Assembly (NCBI GenBank): GCA_029856155.1
Contig: JAHQWL010000072.1
Span: forward strand, 58,683-122,682
DNA: 64,000 bases
Reading direction: 5' to 3'
Source: Promethearchaeia archaeon
Lineage (GTDB): Archaea; Asgardarchaeota; Lokiarchaeia; Sigyniarchaeales; SOKP01
The translations under genes and the position numbers were made by a program. This document shows, in pieces, positions 1 to 54,497 of this stretch (the stretch's first letter is position 1; the number at the start of each line of letters is the position of its first letter). Under the pieces are notes generated by a model. It worked only from the letters and a program-made list of their open reading frames with translations. It had not been told where the DNA came from and made no database searches.

Positions 1-2643
1 ATAGAAGGGTTATCTCCCGCAATCGCAATTGAGCAAAAACCACTTTCAAAGAACCCAAGAAGTACGGTTGGTACTGTAACTGAAATATACGATTACTACA
101 GATTATTATATGCTAATATTGGTATCCCTCATTGTCCTAATTGTAGGAAAGAAATAAGACCACAGACACCACAGCAAATCATTCAACAAGTATTAAATTC
201 AATTGAAGAGAATAAAAAATTTATGATTAAAGCTCCTGTTATACGAGATAGAAAAGGAGAATACAAAGAGCTTTTACAAGATTTAAAGAAGCAAGGATAC
301 GTAAGAGTAGAAGTCGATGGGATTCAATATACATTAGATGAGGATATCTCTATGGAAAAAAACGTGAAGCACAATATCAATGTCATAATTGACAGATTAG
401 TTATGCGCAAGGATATTAAGACACGACTAGCTGATTCTATAGAAAATGCATTAGAGTTAACAGATGGTTTAGTTATTGTTGATGTTATTGAAGATGAGCA
501 GCATATTTTCTCCGAACATCTCGCATGTATTGATTGTGGAATATCTTTTCCTCCCTTAGATCATAAAATGTTTTCATTTAACATTCCGCATGGAAGTTGT
601 AAATATTGTAGTGGTTTAGGAAATGTTATGGAATTTGATTATGAATTACTTTTAGGAAATGATCTAGACATTCCACTTGAGGAGACCTCTATTAGAGATA
701 TTCCTGGTTTTGGATCTTCAAACGGCTATTCTTGGCAAACAATAGTGCAAGTTGCCAAACACTATGGATTTGACACGGATAAAACACCAATTAAAAATAT
801 CGACTCAACAAAACTTCATAAAATATTATATGGTACTGAAAATGAATCAATTGATTTTCATTTTGAGAGTGAAAATAATGACTATAAAAACCATAATGGA
901 GATTTCAAATCTTCTTGGCAAGTTGTAAGACCTTTCGAGGGAATAATTCCAATATTGCAAAGACGATACATGGAAACTCGTTCAGAGTGGGCTCGTGAAG
1001 TTTATGAAAGTTTTATGAATAGGATAAATTGCCCACAGTGTGATGGACAAAGATTAAAACCAGAAAGTTTAGCAGTGACAATTAATAACCTCAATATTGC
1101 TGAATTATCTGCTTTATCTGTAAAAGATTCTTTAAAATTTTGTAAAGAATTAAATTTAACAGAAACTGAAAAGATAATCGTTAAAGAAGTGTTAAAAGAA
1201 ATATTAGATAGATTATCTTTCCTTGAAAATGTAGGATTAGATTATATTTCATTAAACCGTCGATCTGATACATTATCCATTGGAGAAGCAGAAAGAATTC
1301 GACTAGCTACACAATTAGGGTCTAGCTTAGTAGGTGTATTATATGTTTTAGATGAACCTAGTATAGGACTTCATCAAAGAGATATTAATCGTCTTATCAA
1401 TATGTTAAAAAAATTAAGAGATCTAGGGAATACTGTTATTGTAGTTGAACACGATGAGGCAATAATGCGTAGTGCAGATCATATTATTGATTTAGGGCCA
1501 TTAGCAGGTGAGAAGGGGGGTGAAATAGTTGCTGAAGGACCAATTGATTTTATAATCAATTCCAGGACTTTAACTGGAGATTATCTATCAGGAAAAAAGA
1601 AAATAATAATTCCCAAAAATAGACGGGAAATACACAAAGATTTTATTGAAATAAAAGGAGCAAACGAGAATAATTTAAAACATATCGATGTAAAAATTCC
1701 TTTAGGAGTATTTACTTGTATAACAGGAGTTTCTGGAGCAGGAAAAACTAGTCTAATTATTGATTGTTTATATAAAGGACTCCATAATCTAATAAATACA
1801 CGGAGTTCAAAAATTAGTGAAGGAAAGTATGATAAGATTATAGGTTATGAAAAAATTGATAAAATTATTAATATAGACCAATCCCCAATAGGAAGAACTC
1901 CCAGATCGGTTCCAGCAACATATACAAAAGCGTTAGACTATATTAGAGAAATCTTTGCTGGATTACCCGAAGCAAGAGAAAGAGGTTATAAAAAGGGGCG
2001 ATTTAGTTTTAATACTAAAGATGGACATTGCAAAAAGTGTAAAGGAACGGGATATATACTTAAAGAAATGTATTTCTTACCTGATGTGTATATAAAATGT
2101 GATTTATGTAAAGGAAAAAGATATAATACTGAAACATTGGAGGTTAAATATCGAGGGAAATCAATCTATGAGATTTTGAGGATGACTTTTCATCAAGCAT
2201 TAGAATTTTTTGATAGTTATCCTAATTTAAAAAGAACTCTAAAGACAGTAGTAGATGTTGGATTGGGTTATTTAGAATTAGGGCAGTCGTCTACAACTTT
2301 AAGTGGAGGAGAATCTCAACGCTTAAAGATTGCGAGGGAATTGAGAAAAACAAGCACGGGAAACACCCTTTATATCTTAGATGAACCAACTACGGGTTTA
2401 TCTTCTTATGACATAAATTTCTTGCTTAAAGTACTTCAAAAACTTGTAAATAAAGGAAATACTGCTATTATTATTGAACATAACATGGATATTATAAAGT
2501 CAGTTGATTATATTATTGATCTTGGACCTGAAGGAGGAGAGAAAGGAGGAAATGTTATAGTAAAAGGAACTCCAGAAGAAATAATAAGCAATAATTCATC
2601 TTTCACAGCTAAATATTTAAAAAAATATCTTAATAATAATTAA
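1..2643 (+). CDS. uvrA: Excinuclease ABC subunit A (5' end lies outside the window)
   Basis: Frame is open from base 1 (IEGLSPAIAIEQK...NPRSTVGTVTEIYDY); Zn-finger CxxC pairs; two ABC cassettes (LSIGEAERI..LDEPSIGLH; GVSGAGKT, LSGGE..LDEPTTGL). Confidence 0.97.
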   Translation: MEGLSPAIAIEQKPLSKNPRSTVGTVTEIYDYYRLLYANIGIPHCPNCRKEIRPQTPQQIIQQVLNSIEENKKFMIKAPVIRDRKGEYKELLQDLKKQGYVRVEVDGIQYTLDEDISMEKNVKHNINVIIDRLVMRKDIKTRLADSIENALELTDGLVIVDVIEDEQHIFSEHLACIDCGISFPPLDHKMFSFNIPHGSCKYCSGLGNVMEFDYELLLGNDLDIPLEETSIRDIPGFGSSNGYSWQTIVQVAKHYGFDTDKTPIKNIDSTKLHKILYGTENESIDFHFESENNDYKNHNGDFKSSWQVVRPFEGIIPILQRRYMETRSEWAREVYESFMNRINCPQCDGQRLKPESLAVTINNLNIAELSALSVKDSLKFCKELNLTETEKIIVKEVLKEILDRLSFLENVGLDYISLNRRSDTLSIGEAERIRLATQLGSSLVGVLYVLDEPSIGLHQRDINRLINMLKKLRDLGNTVIVVEHDEAIMRSADHIIDLGPLAGEKGGEIVAEGPIDFIINSRTLTGDYLSGKKKIIIPKNRREIHKDFIEIKGANENNLKHIDVKIPLGVFTCITGVSGAGKTSLIIDCLYKGLHNLINTRSSKISEGKYDKIIGYEKIDKIINIDQSPIGRTPRSVPATYTKALDYIREIFAGLPEARERGYKKGRFSFNTKDGHCKKCKGTGYILKEMYFLPDVYIKCDLCKGKRYNTETLEVKYRGKSIYEILRMTFHQALEFFDSYPNLKRTLKTVVDVGLGYLELGQSSTTLSGGESQRLKIARELRKTSTGNTLYILDEPTTGLSSYDINFLLKVLQKLVNKGNTAIIIEHNMDIIKSVDYIIDLGPEGGEKGGNVIVKGTPEEIISNNSSFTAKYLKKYLNNN

Positions 2644-12677: not shown

Positions 12678-13325
12678 ATGAATCAAAAGCCTTTACTTTT
12701 AATTATTGGAAATTCAAATGTAGGAAAAAGCTCAATAACTAGATTACTGATGCCAAATCCTAGAAAATTTAAGGGTAAAATTGGAAAATCTCCGGGTAGT
12801 ACGCTATTGATAAAACCAATTACTCAAAATAGTTTACCCTATAAAATAGTTGATCTTCCAGGATTTGGATATGTAAGTCACTCCAGCCGTAGACGAGGAG
12901 CCCATATTAAAAAACAAATTGTTGTTCATATCGAAAAACACTATGAGGAATATTTTTTCGGGTTAGTAGTAATAAATATTTTAAGAATCGAAGATGAAAT
13001 AGAGAAGTATTACATTCAAAATAAGAGAACTATACCATTAAGTTTTGAATTAATTCAATTTTTAAGCGAGTTTAAAATCCCTTTTCTCATAATTTTTAAT
13101 AAAATTGATAAAATTTCTAATCTGAATAAAAAAGAAAAAATTAACTTGTTTATTGAATCAGCAAAAGAATACGGTTTAGATCTGATTAAATTGAATGATT
13201 ATAGTGTTGAAAAAAATTCAGAAATACCATATTTGGAATTTTCAGCTTTAAAAAAGATAAATATCATAAAATTAAAAAGCATAATTCAAAAATCTTTAAA
13301 TAATTTTATGAAAAAATGTCCCTAG
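12678..13325 (+). CDS. engB: EngB/YihA family GTPase
   Basis: GNSNVGKSS, PGST, DLPGFG, NKID, FSA. Confidence 0.85.
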   Translation: MNQKPLLLIIGNSNVGKSSITRLLMPNPRKFKGKIGKSPGSTLLIKPITQNSLPYKIVDLPGFGYVSHSSRRRGAHIKKQIVVHIEKHYEEYFFGLVVINILRIEDEIEKYYIQNKRTIPLSFELIQFLSEFKIPFLIIFNKIDKISNLNKKEKINLFIESAKEYGLDLIKLNDYSVEKNSEIPYLEFSALKKINIIKLKSIIQKSLNNFMKKCP

Positions 13326-13383
13326 GATTCACATTTGTTCTTGAATTATTATAGATTTCTTCTTCCTTATTAACGTAATATTT

Positions 13384-13911
13384 CTATTTGTGTTTTATAT
13401 ATTTAATTAATCCTAATATTAAATTTAATCTAGGGACTTTTTGTTTATATCTCTTGTAATCTTCACCAAATTTATCAATAAGATTTTTATCCTCTACGAA
13501 TGTCCATTGATATGTTAAAATTATAATAATGATGCTAAGAATTAAGCTCAACCATATTTGAGTCCAGAATGTAATACTTGTACTAAATAATATACCTCCT
13601 AAATATTGTGGATGACGGATAATAGCATATGGACCTCTTTCTACTACCTTTGTCGTATGCATATAGCTTTTACCCTTTTCTACACCCCCTCTTTTCTTAA
13701 AAGTCCAAAAAGAAATCAAACCAAAATATAGACTAAATACCCAAATTACATATCCTATATATACTAAAATGATTATATTTAATTCATTAAAGAATAGGAA
13801 CATTAAGATTATTTGAATTATAAATGACAATGTAAATATTGATGTAAATATTACATCTGTAATTCTAACTTTTTTCTTCTTTTCCTTAATAATATCCTGA
13901 TTTTTCTCCAT
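13384..13911 (-). CDS. Isoprenylcysteine carboxyl methyltransferase / PEMT family membrane protein
   Basis: TM helices plus GPYAIIRHPQY and ED..L...FGEDY..Y...VPR. Confidence 0.85.
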   Translation of the reverse strand: MEKNQDIIKEKKKKVRITDVIFTSIFTLSFIIQIILMFLFFNELNIIILVYIGYVIWVFSLYFGLISFWTFKKRGGVEKGKSYMHTTKVVERGPYAIIRHPQYLGGILFSTSITFWTQIWLSLILSIIIIILTYQWTFVEDKNLIDKFGEDYKRYKQKVPRLNLILGLIKYIKHK

Positions 13912-14050
13912 ATTTCAAGTGACCCCCTAGATTATTCTCTTCAAAATATTAATTACTTAGTAAATTTCTTTTTTTATTAGAAATTAAATCATTCTCTAAC
14001 ATTCCTAAAGTTTCACCTAAAATCTTAAATATTTAAAGTTACTAGATATA

Positions 14051-14076
14051 ATTAAGTTTGAATATTTAAACTTAAT
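14051..14076. promoter_or_regulatory. 26-bp near-perfect palindrome, candidate PadR operator
   Basis: ATTAAGTTT-GAATATTT-AAACTTAAT, located between the divergent ICMT-like and PadR genes. Confidence 0.5.
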
Positions 14077-14144
14077 CATTCAAAGTTAACCATAATATTT
14101 AACATTAAATTTAGTATTTCCTGTCTAAGATATGAATAAAATTC

Positions 14145-14774
14145 ATGCCGAAAAAGAGATATACTCCCCTTAAAACATTTATATTAGGTGTAATGAATAC
14201 AATTCCAAGACCCATGAGCGGTTATGAGTTAATTTCATTAGCAAAAGAATGGCGATATGATCATTATATCAAAGCTACAAAAGCATCATTCTATTATGCA
14301 TTAAAAAATCTAGAAGATGATGATCTTATCAAAGAAGTAGGTTCTAAACAAAAAGGTAATCGACCTGAGCAAATAACCTATAAAATGTTGAATAAAGGCA
14401 AGCATGAATTCCAAGAACAAATTTCTTATTTCCTTAATTATCCCCAGGAAATGTATTTCGATATTGATGCTTCAACACCTTTTATTATTCTATTTGGTAT
14501 GTTTAAGGGAAAACAATTCATATTGGATTCTATTGATAATCAAATTAAAGAAAGACAAAAAATGTTAAAGATCGCCGATGATGGGGAGCAATTTGTTAAA
14601 TCTCATTTTCTTTATGAATTAAGTCCTTTCTATATACTACCTTTGAAACACTGGAGGCTTCATAATGAAGCAGAGATAAAATGGTTAGAACTATTTAAGG
14701 AAATGGTAGAAAGTATTGATGATTTTAAAGAACAATATAATGAAATGATAAAACGCGCAATTACGAAGGGATAA
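14145..14774 (+). CDS. PadR family transcriptional regulator
   Basis: PMSGYEL...SFYYALKNLEDDDLI...RPEQITY....G; C-terminal EAEIKWLE helix. Confidence 0.88.
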   Translation: MPKKRYTPLKTFILGVMNTIPRPMSGYELISLAKEWRYDHYIKATKASFYYALKNLEDDDLIKEVGSKQKGNRPEQITYKMLNKGKHEFQEQISYFLNYPQEMYFDIDASTPFIILFGMFKGKQFILDSIDNQIKERQKMLKIADDGEQFVKSHFLYELSPFYILPLKHWRLHNEAEIKWLELFKEMVESIDDFKEQYNEMIKRAITKG

Positions 14775-14807
14775 TTTAATATAAAGAGAAAATAATATTA
14801 AACGGGA

Positions 14808-16103
14808 CTATTCAGTGGGAGTTATTTTTGGATCCTTATCAGGATCCCAATTTACTGTAAATAAGAAATCTCTGCTTGTTTCATTTTTATAAATTAACGG
14901 AAATCCGCTAACTTTTTCGAATTTTAAGGCAAAATCTTCTAAATAATCATAATCAGGAAAGTAATCTTTAACTTGATTTTTACTTTTCAGTCTTTCGTTT
15001 ATCAATAAAGCTTTTGCTTGTAATGTAAATCCTTTAATTTCAAAAAAATTCGGATTTGTTTTTTCAATTATTTTAGCATATTCAGTTATATACTTATCTT
15101 CTATGTTCAAGTTTTTTACTGCAGTCAACCTGACTAGAGTTCTACAAGATAAAGATTCTACCAAATCTAAACTATTTAATACTTGATTCCAACCATTTCT
15201 AATCATTGGACGACAAGTAGTCTTATAAATTTGTTCGTTTGGAGCAGCTAATGTAATATATAACTGCGTAGGTAAATGTTCCAACTTTTCAATCTTTTCT
15301 GTTAGAGTTCCATTAGTGACAATAAATGTCGTCATATTACGACTTTTAAATTCATGAACAAATTCAGAAATTCTTGGATATAGAAGTGGTTCTCCATCTA
15401 GAGAAATAGCTGCATGATTTGGTGTCATTGCTTCATTATGAGCTTGCATTATTTCATCAGGTGATGTCAATTCTCTATTAATTAAAACTTCTAACTCTTC
15501 TCTGGAGCCAATGCAACAATTAATATCATCATCTAATCTAAACTTATTGAATAGGCGATCAGTTGATTTAATAAATTTTTGATTCTTTAGAAGAGTGACT
15601 GCCCGTTCAATTTTATTTTTCGAAATGTGAATACTATTTGCAATGGAATTTACACTGTGGATTCGTTGACTATTTAAAAGCATATAATAGAGGATGTCAA
15701 TCATTATTTCATAATTATCAAGGTATCGTCTCAGAGGTAAGTGATTCTTAATGATGTCTTTATGATGTCGCAGCATTTCATCGATAAGTAATTTAGGGTT
15801 ATCAGGTTCAACAATAAATTCACTCCCTAGTGATCCAGACTCTATATCCCTCCAACAAAAAACACATTGATGGTTACAAAAGGGTAGTGAAGGGGTATTT
15901 TGCATGCACCTATGGCTTTCTATTCCAAATACACCCTTATAGCAATTACGATTATTTCTTCCAGTTGAAAGTCTTTGCTCAAGCCAATGACAAGGTTTAA
16001 TAGAAGAATGTTTATTTTCTCCAACGATTCTATAAGTAGTTTTAGTGTAGTTTTCTACAAATTCATTTGTGATTTTGTTTTCAACGATAAATCTATTTTT
16101 CAT
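14808..16103 (-). CDS. taw1: 4-demethylwyosine synthase Taw1/TYW1 (radical SAM) with an internal insertion
   Basis: HSSIKPCHW, CYK..FGIESHRC, CNHQCVFCWR, HAAISLDGEP, FIVTNG, PTQLYI. Confidence 0.92.
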   Translation of the reverse strand: MKNRFIVENKITNEFVENYTKTTYRIVGENKHSSIKPCHWLEQRLSTGRNNRNCYKGVFGIESHRCMQNTPSLPFCNHQCVFCWRDIESGSLGSEFIVEPDNPKLLIDEMLRHHKDIIKNHLPLRRYLDNYEIMIDILYYMLLNSQRIHSVNSIANSIHISKNKIERAVTLLKNQKFIKSTDRLFNKFRLDDDINCCIGSREELEVLINRELTSPDEIMQAHNEAMTPNHAAISLDGEPLLYPRISEFVHEFKSRNMTTFIVTNGTLTEKIEKLEHLPTQLYITLAAPNEQIYKTTCRPMIRNGWNQVLNSLDLVESLSCRTLVRLTAVKNLNIEDKYITEYAKIIEKTNPNFFEIKGFTLQAKALLINERLKSKNQVKDYFPDYDYLEDFALKFEKVSGFPLIYKNETSRDFLFTVNWDPDKDPKITPTE

Positions 16104-47167: not shown

Positions 47168-47575
47168 ATGACTTCTATGGAATCGACTACTGAAAATCTT
47201 GATGATATATTAAAAAAACTCCTTGCAGCTATCCCAGAGGTAAAATCTGCTGCTATTGTTTCCGCTGAAGGGTTGCCCATTGCCTCCGCACTCCCACAGG
47301 GTGTGGATGAAACACGTATAGATGAATAATAAAAGTATTTATCGCGTAAAGCAGCAATGACGGCAGCACTTCTCTCCCTTGCCGAAAGGGCGGTTATCGA
47401 GATGGAGAAAGGCGAGTTCGATCAATTATATATCAAAGGGAATGATGGGTATTTATTAGTTATGCAAGCTGGCCCCAATGCCGTATTAACTGTTTCTACA
47501 ACGAAAGATGTACGGTTGGGACTAATATTTTTAGATTGTAAACGAACGTGCGAGAAAATAGCAAAACTCATATAA
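47168..47575 (+). CDS. Roadblock/LC7 protein split by a 30-nt insertion (exon1 47168-47319, exon2 47350-47575; 125 aa if spliced)
   Basis: Same frame upstream of the listed 72-aa ORF reads MTSMESTTENLDDILKKLLAAIPEVKSAAIVSAEGLPIASALPQGVDETRI[DE**KYLSRK]AAMTAALLSLAERA...GLIFLD. Confidence 0.9.
47320..47349 (+). other. Candidate bulge-helix-bulge/loop mRNA intron
   Basis: Central helix ACGU(47314-17)/GCGU(47344-47), 3-nt bulges AUA and AAA, intron stem GAUGAAUA/UAUUUAUC; the standard cut sites restore the frame. Confidence 0.75.
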
Positions 47576-47737
47576 TTCTCCTTCATAAAATTATAGAATT
47601 TCTAATTTGATAATTAACAAGTATTTTAAAGTAGAGCATTCCCAACATTCAGCTTTTTTAAGAAAAATATTATACTTCATTTTTTCTACCTGAGGTTTTT
47701 ATTTTTTTCTTTTCAAATTTAATTAAACATTATTGGA

Positions 47738-48055
47738 TTGGATTGCCCGATTTTAACCATTTTTGGACAACCTTCAAGGAGAAATCTTGATGCTTCTATA
47801 GATGATGTAGTTAGAATTCAAAAAACCAAAGATTATTTAGCTACCCAAGTCATATTTGCCGGATATCAAAAAAAGTATATCCTGAAAAATTCAAAGATTT
47901 TAGTAGAGAAATTAAAAAATAGGTTGGTGTCTAAAGGAGATATATTTTCCTTTCGTTCTGGAAGTAATAGAGTAGATCTTATAGTGGTAGACCATGCCCC
48001 TCAAGCGCAAATAGTAAAAATTCATAAGAAAACGAGAGTAACTATGCAAGAATAA
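47738..48055 (+). pseudogene. Fragment of a CDC48/VAT N-terminal domain with no AAA module
   Basis: RRNLDASIDDVVRI.K....ATQVIFA...L.NRLVSKGDI....LIVV..P...VKI...TRV pattern; the N-terminal part of the domain is absent. Confidence 0.55.
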
Positions 48056-48502
48056 GGTCCAAAATCTTCTTTTTTTTTATTACTAAAATAAATTTTAAAT
48101 TTATATCGCTTTTTTCTTTAAATAATGAGGAATCATCTATAGTTGTATGATTAAAAATTCCGCATATAGTCAATTTTTTCCTTATTCTTCATTTCATTCA
48201 GAACAATAAGAAATTTTAAAAAATTATTAAATATATTTCTGTCTTGAAATTCAATTTACCAGATTAAAATCCTTGATTATTAAAAGTAAAATTGCTTTAC
48301 TTTGTTTTTCTTTTAAATTGAGATAAGAAAGATAAGAATTATATACATTTTTATCCAATTATATATTGAAGACCAATGAAAGGATTAAAACTACTATATA
48401 AAAACTATCTGATAAATTAATCCTTTTAAGTTTGCAATAACAATTCAATAAGGAAAGTAAAAAATTTTAATGTTAACAATTAAATATAGTGAGGTATTAT
48501 AG

Positions 48503-48976
48503 ATGGCACAATATATTTGGAAATTAATAGGCGCAGGTGGTGTTTTTACACTATTTAGTGTGATTCTTCCTTCAGCTTTTTTCATAGAATCTGGAGTGTG
48601 GAGTTTATTATGGTCTATTGGTATTTTGTGGGGAGGTGACATTTCTGGAGATCAAATTATTGGTTTTTTTGATGATAATAGGTATATGCCAATTGGAGTA
48701 ACTACAACAGTTTTATTAATAATAGCTTTGATATTAATGGCCATAGCAGCTATAAATACAAAAAATGAGAGAAATTTCAAACTAAATGCAGGAATGAGTT
48801 TATTCGGCGGGATATTAACCATTATTGCTCCAATAGTATATTATTTCTATTTGACCGCAGAAATCCCTGCCGTTTTTTGGGTTGAGTTTCATCCATTTAT
48901 AGGAGTATTTCTTCCATTCTTCGCTGGAATCTTAGGAATTATTGGGGCTATTATGGTTGCAAAATCCGGGAAGTAG
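48503..48976 (+). CDS. Hypothetical multi-TM membrane protein
   Basis: GAGGT SD-like motif before the ATG; hydrophobic segments. Confidence 0.75.
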   Translation: MAQYIWKLIGAGGVFTLFSVILPSAFFIESGVWSLLWSIGILWGGDISGDQIIGFFDDNRYMPIGVTTTVLLIIALILMAIAAINTKNERNFKLNAGMSLFGGILTIIAPIVYYFYLTAEIPAVFWVEFHPFIGVFLPFFAGILGIIGAIMVAKSGK

Positions 48977-49103
48977 CTTGTAAATTTCATGAAAATCTAT
49001 ACTATTTTTTTTTATTATTAAATAATTTTTTAGGATAATTTCTAAGGATTTTATTGAATGTATTCTCTGATAAATTTCTTAACCACCTCGTAAAATTAAT
49101 ACC

Positions 49104-49391
49104 TTACCAATCATCAAATATACCATATTGTTCAGCAATTTCAGCTAATTCAAAAAATTCCTTGTATTCCGCGACAATTTTAAGGACTCTAACCAAATTA
49201 GTAATCAAACCCCCGAGTGAAACCATAGTACATAGAATTCCGATAAGCCATCCTATCGAGGGATCTCGGTAATCAAAATTATCCCAAATCAGTAATAACT
49301 CCACAATTCCTATTAGATACCAAAAAAGTAGGAACATAGAATGCCGTAGAATTTTTCTATTACTGTATGTGCTTAATCTTTTAATAAACAT
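49104..49391 (-). CDS. Small 2-TM hypothetical protein (possibly 5'-decayed)
   Basis: Two hydrophobic segments; the frame continues upstream past a TAA. Confidence 0.45.
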   Translation of the reverse strand: MFIKRLSTYSNRKILRHSMFLLFWYLIGIVELLLIWDNFDYRDPSIGWLIGILCTMVSLGGLITNLVRVLKIVAEYKEFFELAEIAEQYGIFDDW

Positions 49392-49674
49392 TAGAGGGAT
49401 AGCTTAGAAATATTGAAGGATTTGTTCGAGCACAGGTAATAGTTGCTCATAATCTTTCTTCTCTAAAAATCGTTTATTATTTACATATATTATAGTTTCA
49501 TTATTAACTAATAAAAGTGTGATATAATCATTTACCTTGAACTCATTCATTCCAAATATAATAATTTTCTTTCGTTTAAATTAATTACAAGATTCAAACA
49601 CGTAAATGTTAGGTATCTAAGATTTTAATATTTTTAGATTGTAAGCGAACGTGTGAAAAAATCGCGAAATTACT

Positions 49675-50394
49675 TTAATCTTCTTCTATTTTGGTATCAT
49701 TTATCAGATCATAATAAAGATAGATGTATGAATGTTTTAACACTTCACATTTCTTAAGCGTTAAAGTTTTGATATTGAATAAATCATCATCAGTTTGGGG
49801 AGGTATTCCATCTATCGATGTAGGGGTATCTTTTCCACCAATTAGACAGGGTGCTATTACAAGTGAAATATGATCTATGAGTTTTTTTCTAAGAAATTGA
49901 GAATTCAATGTCCCTCCTGATTGAATTGATAACTTTTCAATTTGAAAGTCTTGTTTTAGTTTTACAAATAAATCTACAATATTGATCTCATTTGGATAAA
50001 AAATAATATTCATTTCTTTTTCATTTGTTAATTCGAAAGCTGGATGGTTTTTATTGTTTGTAACAATATAAATAGATTTAAATGAATTTATTAGATAAAT
50101 GACACCCTTTTTTGCAAGATGTGGTTTGCGATCAATGATAATTAAGTTGACATCCTTATTATTGTCAGCTTTTTCACGTAAGTTAACACCAATTTTAGCT
50201 AATACCCTTCCACTGATTAAAGCATCTCTATCAGTTTTACGTAAAAGATCATAGTATTGATAATTTCCTTCTTTTATTCCCTTGATTTTAGGAAAATCTA
50301 TTTCTTGATCTCGTACATCGACATCCCCCGTAGAAATTTTTCCATCCAATGACTGCATGAGAAAAAGAGTTGTTTCAGGTCGATTCTTATCCAT
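49675..50394 (-). CDS. RibD C-terminal / DHFR-like reductase
   Basis: MQSLDGKIS, IQSGGTLN, LIDHISLVIAP.LIGG..TPT. Confidence 0.88.
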   Translation of the reverse strand: MDKNRPETTLFLMQSLDGKISTGDVDVRDQEIDFPKIKGIKEGNYQYYDLLRKTDRDALISGRVLAKIGVNLREKADNNKDVNLIIIDRKPHLAKKGVIYLINSFKSIYIVTNNKNHPAFELTNEKEMNIIFYPNEINIVDLFVKLKQDFQIEKLSIQSGGTLNSQFLRKKLIDHISLVIAPCLIGGKDTPTSIDGIPPQTDDDLFNIKTLTLKKCEVLKHSYIYLYYDLINDTKIEED

Positions 50395-51718: not shown

Positions 51719-51870
51719 TTTTCTTTTTCTCTATCTTAGTCTTAAAATTCATTTTACTCAAGAATAGTGATATTTGAAAAACAAATATACAAGTTAATAT
51801 TTATGTTATTTCCCTTGAAAAGAATATTAGAATTTAATAATAAAAAAAATTTAAATTAAATTTAGTTTAC

Positions 51871-54111
51871 TTAGTGTTTAGTTGGATTCTTCTTAATTTT
51901 AATAAGGATAATCGATATTATGCTTATTAATGCTAGAATGTAGAAAATATTGTACCCTGGGATTCTTGGTCCACTGGGAGAAGGTATTTCAACAGTCACT
52001 TGAATAGAATTTGAAAGTTGATGACCTATCTCATTATAGGCAACGACAACATAATAATAGGTACCGGTACCTAAACCCGAAATTGGGTACTCAAGATCAT
52101 TAATACCTTCATCAATCATAGTCTCAGATCCTGTAAGCGCTGTAATAGGAGTGTTACTTAAAAATATAGAATAATTATCTGCTCCCGCAGAGTCTGTCCA
52201 TAGAAGATCAAAGGCTCCATCTGTGTCCGGGTCATTAGCATTGGAACTTAATATAAAATCACCAGGACGTAGAATTTTAATATATATAGGGAAGTGGTCT
52301 TGGCTTCCAGCAGCACCTGTGATATTATATTCAATATCCCCGATACCATTTTTATCTAAATCCTTACCAGTATAATCATCCCAATAATTACCAATTGAAC
52401 CATTATCCCATTGGTTATTATTTGGATTGCTATCATCTTGAGCATTAATATTATTTCCAACGAAGTAATTTAAATAGAAGAGGTTGTCAGCACAGTTATT
52501 ATCTTCTATAAAAGCTCCTATATTTTTATTATTATAAATGCTATTGTGAGTGAAGGTATTATTATCACAATCATCATTTAAAACTATTCCATTATACTGA
52601 TCAATTGTAGCGTCATTACTTATTTTGTTTTTAATAATGTCATTATCTTTGCATCCTTGCCATAATTCTATACCACATTGAGTGTTATCCTTTATGCTAT
52701 TATTCAAAATTGTATTATTATCACTGTCGTAATAGATTAATAATCCTTTCCTATTATAGCTAAGAGTATTGTTTGAAACAATGTTATTATCACATTCCCA
52801 TTGAAAATAAATCCCATCATTTGAGTTTGTTATTATATTATTCTCTGTAATGTTATTCAAATCACAATTATATAATCGAATTCCATAGCTGTTGCTTTTG
52901 ATAATATTTTTATTAATACTGTTATTAGTACAATAACCATACATCTCTATTCCATAATAGTTATTGTTTATTGTATTATTAGTGAATGAGTTATCATTGC
53001 AGTTATAATACACCTTAATTCCAAACCGAGTGTTATCTTCCATAGTATTGTTCTCAAAAGTATTATCAGAACTATAATATAATCCTAATCCACAGGATCC
53101 ACTTGATAAATTTAAATCAGAGATATAAGAATTGCTACAATTAACTAATAATATTTGCCCTGGATTTGTAAAATTATTCTTATCCAATCCAATTTCGTCA
53201 ACATAATAATAAACAGATTTTCCATTTACTGTATTGTTTGTAGAAATTATATATGAAGAGATACTGGTCAGTCCTCCTTCAATATATACACCACAATTTT
53301 TCATTTCATTTCCAGATAATTTACCATTCGTAGCAAACATTAGATATATCCCATAATAACTACAATCGTTTATTCTATTATTTGTTATAATATTATCATC
53401 ACTATTAACCCAAATTCCATAATAACTAATACCACTAGTTATATTGTTTAATGATATGGTATTTTCATTACTATCCCCAGATAACCTGATTCCGTAAAAA
53501 CATGTCTTAATTTTGTTATAAACAATCGAATTGTTGTTACATTCATCGTACAAAAAGACTCCTGCGTCTGTATTTTGATAGAGTGTATTATTGATTATAG
53601 TATTATTATTGCTGCCTGTCATTAAAAGAATTCCAGCATTTCCATTATCTGAACAGTTATTATTAAAGATCATTCCGTTAGTTACATTAACAAACTTAAT
53701 ACCCCCATCATAATTGTCTGTTCCAGAGTTATAGGCTGTACAGTTAATTATTTTAAAATATTTTTTTGAGTTTCTAATTTCTATGCAATTATCTACTGCG
53801 TTACCATTAATACTAATATTTTTGATTATATAGGGATCATTTTGAAGTCCATTTCCCTCACACCATGGTTCCGATATCGCTTCTGCCCATGTATAATTAC
53901 CACCACCAGTGTCATCAATTATAAATGGTGAAATCTCCCAATATCCTCCCAGTTTCAAGCTTTTTATAGGGTAATCGCCATAATATTCTTGATCCTCAAA
54001 CATTTCAATAGGATTATTAACGTCAATATTTTGAAGAGTATTCAATCCAAAATATAAGGGAATGCATAAAATGAATAAAATTAATAGCTCCTTTTTTTTA
54101 ATTTCTCTCAT
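51871..54111 (-). CDS. Cell-surface parallel beta-helix (NosD-like) protein with an FN3-like domain and Loki-CTERM-like anchor
   Basis: Signal peptide; repeated GI.L..S.NN.I..N; GNYWDDY.G.D; YYYVVVAYN; C-terminal IPGYN + TM + basic tail. Confidence 0.88.
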   Translation of the reverse strand: MREIKKKELLILFILCIPLYFGLNTLQNIDVNNPIEMFEDQEYYGDYPIKSLKLGGYWEISPFIIDDTGGGNYTWAEAISEPWCEGNGLQNDPYIIKNISINGNAVDNCIEIRNSKKYFKIINCTAYNSGTDNYDGGIKFVNVTNGMIFNNNCSDNGNAGILLMTGSNNNTIINNTLYQNTDAGVFLYDECNNNSIVYNKIKTCFYGIRLSGDSNENTISLNNITSGISYYGIWVNSDDNIITNNRINDCSYYGIYLMFATNGKLSGNEMKNCGVYIEGGLTSISSYIISTNNTVNGKSVYYYVDEIGLDKNNFTNPGQILLVNCSNSYISDLNLSSGSCGLGLYYSSDNTFENNTMEDNTRFGIKVYYNCNDNSFTNNTINNNYYGIEMYGYCTNNSINKNIIKSNSYGIRLYNCDLNNITENNIITNSNDGIYFQWECDNNIVSNNTLSYNRKGLLIYYDSDNNTILNNSIKDNTQCGIELWQGCKDNDIIKNKISNDATIDQYNGIVLNDDCDNNTFTHNSIYNNKNIGAFIEDNNCADNLFYLNYFVGNNINAQDDSNPNNNQWDNGSIGNYWDDYTGKDLDKNGIGDIEYNITGAAGSQDHFPIYIKILRPGDFILSSNANDPDTDGAFDLLWTDSAGADNYSIFLSNTPITALTGSETMIDEGINDLEYPISGLGTGTYYYVVVAYNEIGHQLSNSIQVTVEIPSPSGPRIPGYNIFYILALISIISIILIKIKKNPTKH

Positions 54112-54192
54112 AACTCTCTACTTTTTTAAAAAATTTTTAATAATATACATCACAGCATAAATATTAATAAATATGTTTATTTTAGATTAAAA

Positions 54193-54497
54193 ATGAAAAA
54201 AAACAACATTTCTTTAGTGTTATTAGACCATATCGTAATGATTTCATAACTAATCTAAAAGAAGAAGAAAAAATCATGTCTGATCATTTTCTTTACCTAA
54301 AAGCGCTATTGGAACAGAAAAGATTATATTTAGCGGGTCCAACGTTAATATCCGAAGATCCATTTGGACTTATAATTCTTGAAGCAGAAACAGAACTAGA
54401 AGCGAGAAATTTACTTGAAAATGATCTTTCAGTTAAAGCTGGCATTCAGCAAATAGCAGAATTTAGACCTATACGACTCTCTTTAACGAGAAAATAG
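54193..54497 (+). CDS. YciI-like protein with a frameshift in an A8 run right after the start codon
   Basis: Frame from 54204 reads QHFFSVIRPYRNDFITNLKEEEKIMSDHFLYLK...LAGPT...GLIILEAE....A..L..ND; ATG 54193 is one base out of frame. Confidence 0.7.

What the first reader, a model, noticed from the sequence alone, without database searches (positions are those of the whole stretch)
47168..47575. Candidate bulge-helix-bulge mRNA intron in an Asgard Roadblock/LC7 gene
Seen: one reading frame gives the Roadblock N-half (...SAEGLPIASALPQGVDETRI), then 30 extra nt (GATGAATAATAAAAGTATTTATCGCGTAAA) with two in-frame TAA stops (47327-47332), then the C-half (AAMTAALLSLAERA...GLIFLD). Neither half has any other lesion. 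The RNA folds as a 4-bp central helix ACGU(47314-17)/GCGU(47344-47), a 3-nt bulge AUA(47318-20), an 8-bp intron stem GAUGAAUA(47321-28)/UAUUUAUC(47336-43) with a 7-nt loop, and a second 3-nt bulge AAA(47348-50). The exon-side helix is weak locally (C47313-G47351 only), although CAUUGC 47278-83 could pair with GCAAUG 47354-59, so this is a relaxed BHB/BHL motif. Established: archaeal EndA cuts after the second nt of each bulge and RtcB ligates; mRNA introns of this type are known mainly from crenarchaeal cbf5. Cutting at those positions removes 47320-47349 and gives CGU-AUA-GCA, i.e. DETRIAAMTAALL and a continuous 125-aa protein. Inference: the tRNA-splicing machinery splices, and may regulate, the mRNA of a eukaryotic-signature small-GTPase partner, reminiscent of HAC1/XBP1 non-spliceosomal splicing. 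Standard annotation would report only the 72-aa C-terminal fragment. The insertion partly resembles the preceding exon text (GATGAA...CGTATA vs GATGAA...CGTAAA), which hints at an origin by local duplication.
Basis: partly seen in the sequence, partly recalled or inferred. Interest (0 to 1): 0.95.

Follow-up and report, generated by a model that had tools for sequence, protein, structure and literature searches.

The report
tRNA-type mini-intron in Roadblock gene
A 30-base hairpin with two stop codons splits a very conserved Roadblock gene of a Lokiarchaeia-type (Asgard) archaeon, and it is almost certainly an intron cut out of the messenger RNA by the tRNA-splicing enzymes, which the papers I could search document for only one other archaeal protein gene (cbf5).

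Summary
A Roadblock/LC7 gene (47168-47575, +) carries 30 extra nt (47320-47349) with two in-frame TAA codons.

About 50 species of the same genus lack exactly these 30 nt. The insert boundary defined by those orthologs coincides with the two canonical bulge-helix-bulge (BHB) cut sites.

- **Not an artefact.** The same insert stands in two other public assemblies.
- **Not a fresh lesion.** A second lineage (86% exon identity) carries it with three stem-preserving changes. Its exons differ from this genome's by 38 synonymous and 3 nonsynonymous codons.
- **A third lineage.** A distant lineage has a 33-nt intron at the same site.
- **Other genes are split the same way.** Its single uL11 gene and two other genes carry similar inserts. 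One uL11 intron is kept in 14 species with compensatory stem changes.
- **Exon flanks co-vary.** Intron-bearing alleles share a distinctive synonymous tract that builds a 20-pair exon-exon clamp.

No RNA data could be obtained here, so splicing is inferred. This scan has reported such mini-introns before on other Asgard DNA. I found no published case beyond cbf5. The regulatory (HAC1-like) idea and an origin by local duplication are not supported.

The parts
47168..47319 (+). Exon 1 of the Roadblock/LC7 gene (codons 1-50 plus the first two bases of the Ile-51 codon)
   Evidence: It is collinear with orthologs.
47320..47349 (+). 30-nt BHB-type intron with in-frame TAA TAA at 47327-47332
   Evidence: Absent from about 50 congeners. 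Its boundaries equal the canonical cut sites. It is identical in the JGI and ENA assemblies, and a variant stands in a Logan assembly.
47350..47575 (+). Exon 2 (third base of the Ile-51 codon to the stop); the joined product is 125 aa
   Evidence: the joined frame is 100% identical in protein to sister species G045.
47314..47317 (+). Central 4-bp helix H, exon strand (ACGU); pairs with 47344-47347 (GCGU)
   Evidence: Seen in the sequence and in the centroid fold. The same H is present in all three intron-bearing lineages.
47318..47320 (+). 5' bulge AUA; predicted cut after 47319
   Evidence: BHB rule of cutting between the 2nd and 3rd bulge residue (PMC2738675). This agrees with the ortholog-defined junction.
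47321..47343 (+). Intron hairpin h': 8-bp stem 47321-28 with 47336-43, and 7-nt loop 47329-35
   Evidence: The G-U pair at 47324/47340 makes the structure specific to the sense strand. Three changes in the Logan lineage all keep the pairing.
47344..47350 (+). H intron strand (47344-47) and 3' bulge AAA (47348-50); predicted cut after 47349
47262..47283 (+). 5' strand of a long exon1-exon2 clamp (20 pairs with 47354-47393); it replaces the weak local outer helix
   Evidence: Pairs kept: 20/20 in G000, 19/20 in the Logan lineage, 18/20 in the distant JGI lineage, and 11-16/20 in 25 intron-less orthologs.
47354..47393 (+). 3' strand of the exon1-exon2 clamp
47285..47307 (+). Exon-1 hairpin (9 bp) inside the three-way junction closed by the clamp
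   Evidence: It is only 7/9 paired in the distant lineage by hand count on the alignment, so it is of doubtful importance.

Best explanation
**What it is.** The 30 nt at 47320-47349 are an archaeal bulge-helix-bulge intron of the relaxed HBh'/BHL type, sitting in the pre-mRNA of a Roadblock/LC7 gene.

**Fold.** In the transcript, exon bases 47314-17 pair with intron bases 47344-47. This is the 4-bp central helix. It is flanked by a 3-nt bulge and an 8-bp intron hairpin on one side. On the other side lie a 3-nt bulge and a junction closed by a distal 20-pair exon-exon clamp.

**Splicing.** The heterotetrameric (alpha-beta)2 splicing endonuclease cuts after the second base of each bulge, that is after 47319 and after 47349. 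RtcB then joins the exons. This recreates the Ile codon AUA and an open 125-codon frame reading DETRIAAM across the junction. The intron is probably released as a small circle.

**Shown here:**
- the anatomy;
- the exact agreement of the cut sites with the ortholog-defined junction;
- selection on the gene while it carries the intron;
- preservation of the stem;
- presence of the enzymes;
- the same kind of insert in other genes of this genus, including an essential single-copy one.

**Inferred:** the cleavage and ligation themselves, and how efficient they are.
For: 1. **Boundary.** In 23 aligned same-genus orthologs the gap is exactly these 30 nt. The other full-length orthologs among the 52 genus genomes with a match span 378-381 nt against 408 nt here. 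The joined frame equals sister G045 in all 125 residues, with 46 synonymous and 0 nonsynonymous codon differences.
2. **Chance.** H in register occurs in 2% of random inserts, and H plus an 8-bp stem in about 1e-5.
3. **Real DNA.** The identical insert stands in JGI 3300008517 and ENA ERZ27232714 contigs. Over 43 kb of synteny with G045 it is the only indel above 15 nt and the only one that interrupts a conserved ORF.
4. **Selection with the intron in place.**
   - The Logan SRR26538807 lineage has the intron at the same site.
   - Its three changes are A-U to G-U, G-U to A-U and A-U to G-U, so the stem stays intact.
   - Its exons differ from G000 by 38 synonymous and 3 nonsynonymous codons. 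All three nonsynonymous changes lie in the variable N-tail.
   - The gene tree joins the two with support 100/98.
5. **Third lineage.** A distant lineage (L263/L264) has a 33-nt intron at the same site. It has the same H and the same first bulge, and a re-registered hairpin.
6. **Enzymes.**
   - EndA alpha is 198 aa. Its best solved relative is the A. pernix alpha subunit (1e-34). It carries a CSL/L1-like loop and the Tyr/His/Lys residues.
   - A 202-aa paralog lacks the His and looks like the beta subunit.
   - RtcB is present at full length.
   - Asgard EndA is reported as (alpha-beta)2 with the L1 loop (PMC5829648).
7. **The system works in this genus.**
   - The only uL11 gene of G000 is split twice.
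   - A 28-nt uL11 intron is kept in 14 species. Its H is paired 14/14 at all four positions. Its stem is paired 12-14/14 at eight positions, with compensatory A-U to G-C and C-G to U-A changes.
8. **Further ortholog-verified cases.**
   - A 30-nt strict BHB interrupts an AIR-synthase-like gene at G000:C44:81452-81481.
   - A 29-nt frameshifting insert lies at G000:C58:2995-3023.
   - A 32-nt frameshifting insert lies in a DeoC-family aldolase of G045.
Against:
- **Weak local outer helix.** Only C47313-G47351 pairs locally. The motif is relaxed and depends on a broad-specificity enzyme or on the distal clamp.
- **Marginal central helix.** The minimum-free-energy folds do not always choose the 4-bp central helix.
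- **Patchy distribution.** About 50 congeners, including the sister species, lack the intron. This needs either many losses or lateral spread.
- **Biased clamp count.** The clamp was derived from G000's own fold, so its pair count leans towards G000 and its sister.
- **Metagenome bin.** The genome is a metagenome bin with 5.7% estimated contamination.
Confidence: 0.88

Rival explanations
1. A recent disabling insertion. The gene would be a young pseudogene, and the hairpin shape would be incidental, for example a product of replication slippage or template switching.
For: - The sister species and about 50 congeners lack the insert.
- Eleven other Roadblock paralogs exist in the genome.
Against: - Two lineages that share the insert have diverged at 38 synonymous codons, but at only 3 nonsynonymous ones, all outside the fold.
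- A third lineage keeps an intron at the same site with an intact frame.
- The changes in the stem keep the pairing.
- The nearest paralog in this genome is only 38% identical.
- The same kind of insert splits the single-copy uL11 gene, which cannot be dead.
Confidence: 0.03
2. An assembly or binning artefact: a chimeric or mis-joined contig that puts 30 foreign bases inside the gene.
For: The genome is a metagenome bin of 104 contigs. No reads could be inspected.
Against: - The identical sequence stands in separate JGI and ENA assemblies, and a diverged version in a Logan assembly.
- The insert has exact BHB geometry.
- The 43-kb synteny with G045 shows no other disruptive indel.
Confidence: 0.01
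3. The insert is tolerated or removed by another route. Candidates are stop-codon readthrough or translational bypassing of the 30 nt, a different RNA-processing enzyme, or two separately made half-proteins that assemble.
For: - The insert is a multiple of three, so readthrough would keep the frame.
- Both halves are called as ORFs.
Against: - There are two consecutive TAA codons.
- Ten extra residues would fall inside the Roadblock fold, between profile positions 37 and 44.
- Sibling inserts of 28, 29 and 32 nt shift the frame, so they cannot be read through.
- All of them obey the BHB cut rule, which readthrough and bypassing do not predict.
- The 72-aa half begins 7 nt inside exon 2. No exon ends at a natural domain border.
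Confidence: 0.05

Closest known systems
BHB intron of the cbf5 (pseudouridine synthase) pre-mRNA in Crenarchaeota (Watanabe 2002; Yoshinari 2006; Yokobori 2009, PMC2738675)
   Same: - A short intron inside a protein-coding sequence.
- A relaxed BHB motif.
- Cut sites between the 2nd and 3rd bulge residue that match the expected junction.
- Dependence on a heterotetrameric splicing endonuclease.
- Patchy gain and loss among relatives.
   Different: - A different gene and a different phylum (Asgard/Lokiarchaeia).
- Here it is one of many such introns per genome, with several in single genes such as uL11.
- It turns over at species level.
- Intron-bearing alleles share a distinctive synonymous exon tract that forms a distal clamp.
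- Splicing of cbf5 was shown by cDNA. Here it is inferred.
Non-canonical archaeal tRNA introns (HBh'/hBH, BHL) cut by (alpha-beta)2 or epsilon2 EndA (PMC5829648), and the heavily interrupted Asgard tRNA genes (bioRxiv 10.64898/2026.10.13.758758)
   Same: - The same motif, size range (about 10-80 nt) and enzymes.
- The same lineage-specific repeated gains, with no known route of arrival.
   Different: [quoted passage not shown]
- The outer helix is supplied by distant coding sequence, not by a tRNA stem.
HAC1/XBP1 unconventional mRNA splicing (Ire1 plus tRNA ligase/RtcB)
   Same: It is non-spliceosomal, with enzymatic cutting of an mRNA at a folded motif and RtcB-type ligation. Removal changes the reading frame or the product.
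   Different: - Ire1 cuts in twin 7-nt hairpin loops and is stress-regulated. Here the cuts lie in 3-nt bulges of a BHB.
- No Ire1-type logic or regulation is indicated.
- The resemblance covers only the ligation step.
SOS splicing of DNA transposons from animal mRNAs (PMC12779559)
   Same: Inserted DNA is removed from mRNAs by shape recognition, through paired ends of the insert, with an RtcB-family ligase and without the spliceosome. This protects genes from insertions.
   Different: - It acts in animals, on kilobase-sized transposons with inverted terminal repeats, and with a different nuclease.
- I saw only the abstract.
- Here the insert is a 30-nt hairpin and the likely nuclease is EndA.
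BHB motifs in non-tRNA substrates of Haloferax volcanii EndA (rRNA precursors and an mRNA 5' UTR; PMC7714728)
   Same: EndA acts on BHB motifs outside tRNA.
   Different: Those sites lie in rRNA spacers or an untranslated region, not inside a coding frame. Only the abstract was seen here. The 5' UTR detail comes from an earlier scan note and from my own knowledge.

Membership tests
Archaeal BHB (EndA/RtcB-spliced) intron | A 4-bp central helix with a 3-nt bulge on each strand, the two bulges on opposite strands | tested here: met
   H is 47314-17 with 47344-47, all four pairs standard. The bulges are 47318-20 and 47348-50. The chance of H in register is 2%.
Archaeal BHB (EndA/RtcB-spliced) intron | Flanking helices on both sides (strict hBHBh') | tested here: not met
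   The inner helix h' has 8 bp, but the local outer helix has only 1 bp (C47313-G47351). The motif is therefore the relaxed HBh'/BHL form. A distal 20-pair exon-exon clamp closes the junction instead. Relaxed forms are accepted substrates of (alpha-beta)2 enzymes with the L1 loop (PMC5829648; PMC2738675).
Archaeal BHB (EndA/RtcB-spliced) intron | Cutting between the 2nd and 3rd bulge residue yields the functional RNA | tested here: met
   Removing 47320-47349 gives the ortholog junction (Arg-Ile-Ala) and a protein identical to G045.
Archaeal BHB (EndA/RtcB-spliced) intron | The host encodes a splicing endonuclease able to take relaxed motifs, and an RtcB ligase | tested here: met
   An alpha subunit with a CSL/L1-like loop and the Tyr/His/Lys residues, a beta-like paralog without the His, and a full-length RtcB.
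Archaeal BHB (EndA/RtcB-spliced) intron | The structure is kept across relatives while the sequence changes | tested here: met
   Three stem changes in the Logan lineage all keep the pairing. The 33-nt variant in L263/L264 keeps H, the first bulge and an adjacent hairpin. There are only three lineages, so this support is modest. The uL11 intron in 14 species shows compensatory pairs.
Archaeal BHB (EndA/RtcB-spliced) intron | The intron is physically removed from the RNA (spliced junction, free or circular intron) | not testable with these tools
cbf5 pre-mRNA intron family | Located in cbf5 at the catalytic Asp codon, in Crenarchaeota | tested here: not met
   The host gene is Robl_LC7 and the organism is a Promethearchaeota/Lokiarchaeia MAG. 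The mechanism is the same, but this is not a member of that intron lineage.
Ire1-type (HAC1/XBP1) intron | Cut sites in twin 7-nt stem-loops | tested here: not met
   The ortholog-defined cut sites lie in 3-nt bulges beside a 4-bp helix. Whether an Ire1 gene is present was not searched.

The most novel reading that the evidence does not exclude
BHB mini-introns in Asgard protein genes may behave as mobile units that spread between lineages together with about 70-100 nt of flanking exon, like the co-conversion tracts of homing introns. The alternative is that each gain is followed by rapid synonymous re-coding of the exons to build the splice motif and a distal clamp.

The evidence here:
- All three intron-bearing Roadblock lineages share a synonymous exon tract around the junction, and none of about 30 intron-less lineages has it.
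- G000 and the distant L264 lineage are 94.5% identical in that tract, against 76.6% elsewhere in the gene.
- L264 otherwise groups with an intron-less species in the gene tree.

Either reading would give the first handle on how tRNA-type introns arrive in genes of the closest archaeal relatives of eukaryotes.
Probability: 0.3. Interest if true: 0.9.

Novelty: new variant of a known kind. Interest (0 to 1): 0.8.

Why it matters
Enzymatic (tRNA-type) splicing of protein-coding messages is textbook-rare. In Archaea it is documented for cbf5 only.

Here an Asgard archaeon, from the group closest to eukaryotes, needs it for a eukaryote-signature Roadblock gene and for its only uL11 gene. Related species gain and lose such introns at species level.

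Three consequences follow:

1. Standard annotation of these genomes systematically splits or truncates genes.
2. Interrupted coding genes, and a cell-wide dependence on RNA splicing, existed on the archaeal side of eukaryogenesis.
3. This Roadblock intron offers a clean natural experiment on how introns arrive and how exons adapt to them. It exists with and without alleles, in three lineages, and with a co-varying exon tract and clamp.

It is directly testable with RT-PCR and with recombinant EndA.

Tried and rejected
- **Genome-wide scan for a BHB plus merging of two ORFs.** It was uninformative. It gave 27,829 real hits against 27,031 decoy hits, because adjacent genes and overlapping frames swamp it. 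Only compact-hairpin filtering brought out true cases.
- **An 'RCGU...RCGUA' signature.** It is shared by three introns and looked like a target or family mark. It is not general. The C58 and uL11 introns use other helices, and a whole-genome RCGU scan gave only two strong hits.
- **Target-site-duplication model.** Rejected. It predicts Arg-Lys-Ala, not Arg-Ile-Ala (reasoned).
- **Origin by local exon duplication.**
  - The 6-nt GAUGAA repeat and the CGUA-A ending are explained by chance and by a palindromic helix.
  - One other intron (C44) repeats 8 of the 10 upstream bases.
  - The others show nothing comparable (hand comparison).
- **Copies of the intron elsewhere in the genome.** None within 6 mismatches.
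- **ARAGORN tRNA introns as a local reference set.** It found only 23 tRNAs, and its boundaries are unreliable in this intron-rich genome.
- **Placing the distant L264 lineage by the upstream URO-D gene.** That neighbour is not present there.
- **Recombination test for the shared exon tract.** Fisher 2.7e-4, but 22 of 300 codon shuffles do as well. This is suggestive only.
- **Group I/II introns, inteins, CRISPR or MITE-like repeats.** Not considered further. The insert is 30 nt, unique in the genome and non-coding.

Full report
**Observation**

One frame runs from ATG 47168 to 47319. It meets 30 extra bases (47320-47349) with TAA TAA at 47327-47332, then continues to the stop at 47573-75.

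Read through, the frame is a Roadblock/LC7 domain (Pfam Robl_LC7, E 2.6e-17, profile 2-90 of 91). The N-half covers profile positions 2-37 and the C-half 44-90.

The genome (G000) is a 4.1-Mb metagenome bin with 30% G+C. Named relatives in public records label it Promethearchaeota/Lokiarchaeia. It has 12 Roadblock paralogs. This one scores best and is the only one with internal stops.

**Structure**

- The named pairings are all present:
  - a 4-bp helix, 47314-17 with 47344-47;
  - a 3-nt bulge, 47318-20;
  - an 8-bp stem, 47321-28 with 47336-43, with a 7-nt loop;
  - a second 3-nt bulge, 47348-50.
- Two G-U pairs make the fold specific to the sense strand.
- The 66-nt piece alone is not unusually stable (z -0.58).
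- The 141-nt context folds far better than shuffles (z -2.98, 0 of 200). Its centroid contains the central helix, the bulge and the stem.
- The local outer helix is a single pair, so the motif is the relaxed HBh'/BHL form.
- A random or shuffled 30-mer placed here gives the central helix in the canonical register in 2% of trials. It gives that helix plus an 8-bp adjacent stem in about 1e-5.

**Boundary test**

In 23 aligned same-genus orthologs the gap is exactly these 30 nt. The other full-length orthologs among the 52 genus genomes with a match span 378-381 nt against 408 nt here.

The protein is almost invariant across the genus, while the DNA is 68-81% identical.

The BHB rule places each cut between the second and third bulge residue (PMC2738675). 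That removes 47320-47349 and recreates Arg-Ile-Ala, as in all orthologs.

The joined frame is identical in all 125 residues to the sister species G045, with 46 synonymous and 0 nonsynonymous codon differences.

**Not an artefact, not a fresh lesion**

- **Clean synteny.** Over 43 kb of synteny with G045, this is the only indel above 15 nt and the only one that interrupts a conserved ORF.
- **Independent assemblies.** Exact-product look-ups found the 53-aa and 72-aa fragments called as separate genes elsewhere. JGI 3300008517 and ENA ERZ27232714 are identical to the window.
- **A second lineage.**
  - Logan SRR26538807 is a different lineage with 86% exon identity, a different downstream gene and one extra N-terminal codon.
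  - Its intron differs at three positions, all in the 5' arm of the stem. All three keep the pairing: A-U to G-U, G-U to A-U, and A-U to G-U.
  - The exons of the two lineages differ by 38 synonymous and only 3 nonsynonymous codons. All three lie in the variable residues 3-10.
  - The gene tree joins the two lineages with support 100/98, beside an intron-less clade of G045, G066 and G067.
  - So the gene has stayed under strong purifying selection while carrying the insert. This disposes of the pseudogene reading.
- **A third lineage.**
  - A degenerate pattern scan of metagenome contigs found two identical contigs, L263 and L264.
  - They have 80% exon identity to G000. In the gene tree they sit next to the intron-less species G013 (support 93/84).
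  - They carry a 33-nt intron at the same site, with the same central helix and first bulge and a re-registered hairpin.
  - A 10-nt block of that intron is shared with the G000 intron.

**Machinery**

- G000 encodes two EndA paralogs.
  - One (198 aa) is most like the catalytic alpha subunit of the Aeropyrum pernix heterotetramer (1e-34). It has a loop aligned with the Crenarchaea-specific (L1) loop and the Tyr/His/Lys residues.
  - The other (202 aa) has lost the His and looks like the structural beta subunit.
- RtcB is present at full length.
- This agrees with the published statement that Asgard archaea have (alpha-beta)2 EndA with the L1 insert, the type that accepts relaxed motifs (PMC5829648).

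**The same thing elsewhere in this genus**

I ran a motif-free census of 627 kb aligned between G000 and G045. A motif scan added more. Together they gave further ortholog-verified cases:

| Case | Length | Host gene | What was seen |
|---|---|---|---|
| G000:C44:81452-81481 | 30 nt | AIR-synthase-like gene | Strict BHB with an 11-bp outer helix; absent from 11 orthologs; junction His-Val-Thr-Arg restored |
| G000:C58:2995-3023 | 29 nt, frameshifting | Not identified | Relaxed motif; canonical cuts restore Cys-Gly-Thr-Leu-Cys as in G045 |
| G045 (L146) | 32 nt, frameshifting | DeoC-family aldolase | 9-bp stem; frame restored to match G000 |

The strongest case is uL11.

- The only uL11 gene of G000 is split twice near its N-terminus.
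- Across the genus about half the species have uL11 introns, at three positions.
- One 28-nt frameshifting intron is kept in 14 species.
  - Its central helix is paired 14/14 at all four positions.
  - Its stem is paired 12-14/14 at eight positions.
  - It shows compensatory A-U to G-C and C-G to U-A changes.
- An essential single-copy gene cannot be dead in 14 species. RNA-level removal at BHB motifs must therefore operate in this genus.

**Exon co-variation (new here)**

- All three intron-bearing Roadblock lineages share synonymous codon choices around the junction.
  - The Arg codon is CGU and the Ile codon is AUA.
  - Particular Gly-Leu-Pro and Ala-Met-Thr-Ala-Ala codons are also shared.
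  - No intron-less allele has these choices. This includes nine contigs that encode the identical protein.
- G000 and the distant L264 lineage are 94.5% identical over 73 nt spanning the junction, against 76.6% elsewhere. Fisher gives 2.7e-4, but 22 of 300 codon shuffles reach it, so the result is suggestive only.
- Between G000 and the Logan lineage, the 20 and 24 exon bases next to the intron carry no synonymous change (P about 0.02).
- These choices build the central helix and the exon-exon clamp. Of its 20 pairs, G000 keeps 20, Logan 19 and L264 18. The 25 intron-less orthologs keep 11-16. This count leans towards G000, because the clamp was taken from its own fold.
- Two readings remain open. 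Either the exons were re-coded to support splicing, or the intron moved between lineages together with a flanking tract.

**Comparison with what is known**

In the papers I could search, splicing inside an archaeal coding sequence is confirmed only for cbf5 of Crenarchaeota. Introns in other genes were only predicted (PMC2738675; searches).

A 2026 preprint documents repeated gains of BHB introns in Asgard tRNA genes and finds no route of arrival. It does not treat mRNAs.

Earlier notes of this scan report the same kind of mini-intron in many Asgard genomes, including other pieces of this genome and Roadblock genes elsewhere. One follow-up claims exact removal in environmental RNA. I treated these notes as leads. 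I checked two of them myself (the C44 intron and uL11) and recovered a third (the AMP phosphorylase candidate) in my scan only.

The resemblance to HAC1/XBP1 is limited to RtcB-type ligation. The cut sites are BHB bulges, not Ire1 loops, and nothing indicates regulation.

**Verdict**

Direct RNA proof is missing. The intron is a new variant of a known kind: cbf5-type mRNA splicing, but in Asgard archaea, in many genes, with species-level turnover and co-varying exons.

Noticed in passing
window 47523-49680: About 2.1 kb present in G000 but not in G045 begins at the 3' end of the Roadblock gene. A second copy of the gene's last ~45 nt plus downstream flank lies at 49626-49680. That copy resembles G045's gene end more than G000's current gene end does. 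This is the signature of an element integrated into the gene's 3' end. The element carries a CDC48_2-like 105-aa ORF and a 157-aa membrane ORF, and no integrase was seen. The Logan lineage has the intron but not the element.
   Followed up: partly
G018:C69:69037-69135; G023:C1:1444217-1444341; G004:C119:887-995; G042:C215:15471-15580; G067:C32:15269-15338: Partial copies of the Roadblock gene's 3' end lie 1-3 kb from the full gene, or on other contigs, in several congeners. The gene end may be a recurrent integration site.
   Followed up: no
L043/L079 (G005:C151 contig end) and L250 (Logan SRR26538809 contig start): Two independent assemblies break within 1-7 nt of the intron site. The G005 contig begins 1-2 nt after the junction, and its N-half was not found in the bin. 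The Logan contig begins 7 nt after the intron. This may reflect with/without or sequence polymorphism of the intron in those populations.
   Followed up: partly
G000:C44:135906-136400 (L195); loci L227-L246: The single-copy uL11 gene carries introns at three positions across the genus: after GGS|A, after GGPPI|G and after GIN|IKD.
- G045 and G005 have all three.
- G000 has the first two.
- About 27 species have none.
   Followed up: yes
G000:C44:81452-81481 (L158 853-882); G000:C58:2993-3023; G045 L146 about 520-552 (minus strand): Three further species-specific BHB-type inserts of 30, 29 and 32 nt. They lie in an AIR-synthase-like gene, in a gene with an N-terminal CPFCG..LCDD cysteine motif (family not checked), and in a DeoC-family aldolase. 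Each is absent from the orthologs I compared.
   Followed up: yes
G000:C98:57026-57055 (L160); G000:C89:12242-12272 (L161); G000:C8:2368-2393 minus strand (L162): More compact hairpin inserts that would merge two long open frames if cut by the BHB rule. The first matches an earlier first-reader note (AMP phosphorylase). None was checked against orthologs here.
   Followed up: no
whole genome G000: ARAGORN finds only 23 tRNA genes, 11 of them with introns, in a genome estimated 97% complete. Many tRNA genes are probably hidden by multiple or non-canonical introns.
   Followed up: no
window about 13300-14820 and about 51812-54228: Two further G000-specific stretches of about 1.5 kb and 2.4 kb interrupt the otherwise collinear 86-90% identical synteny with G045 contig C51.
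   Followed up: no
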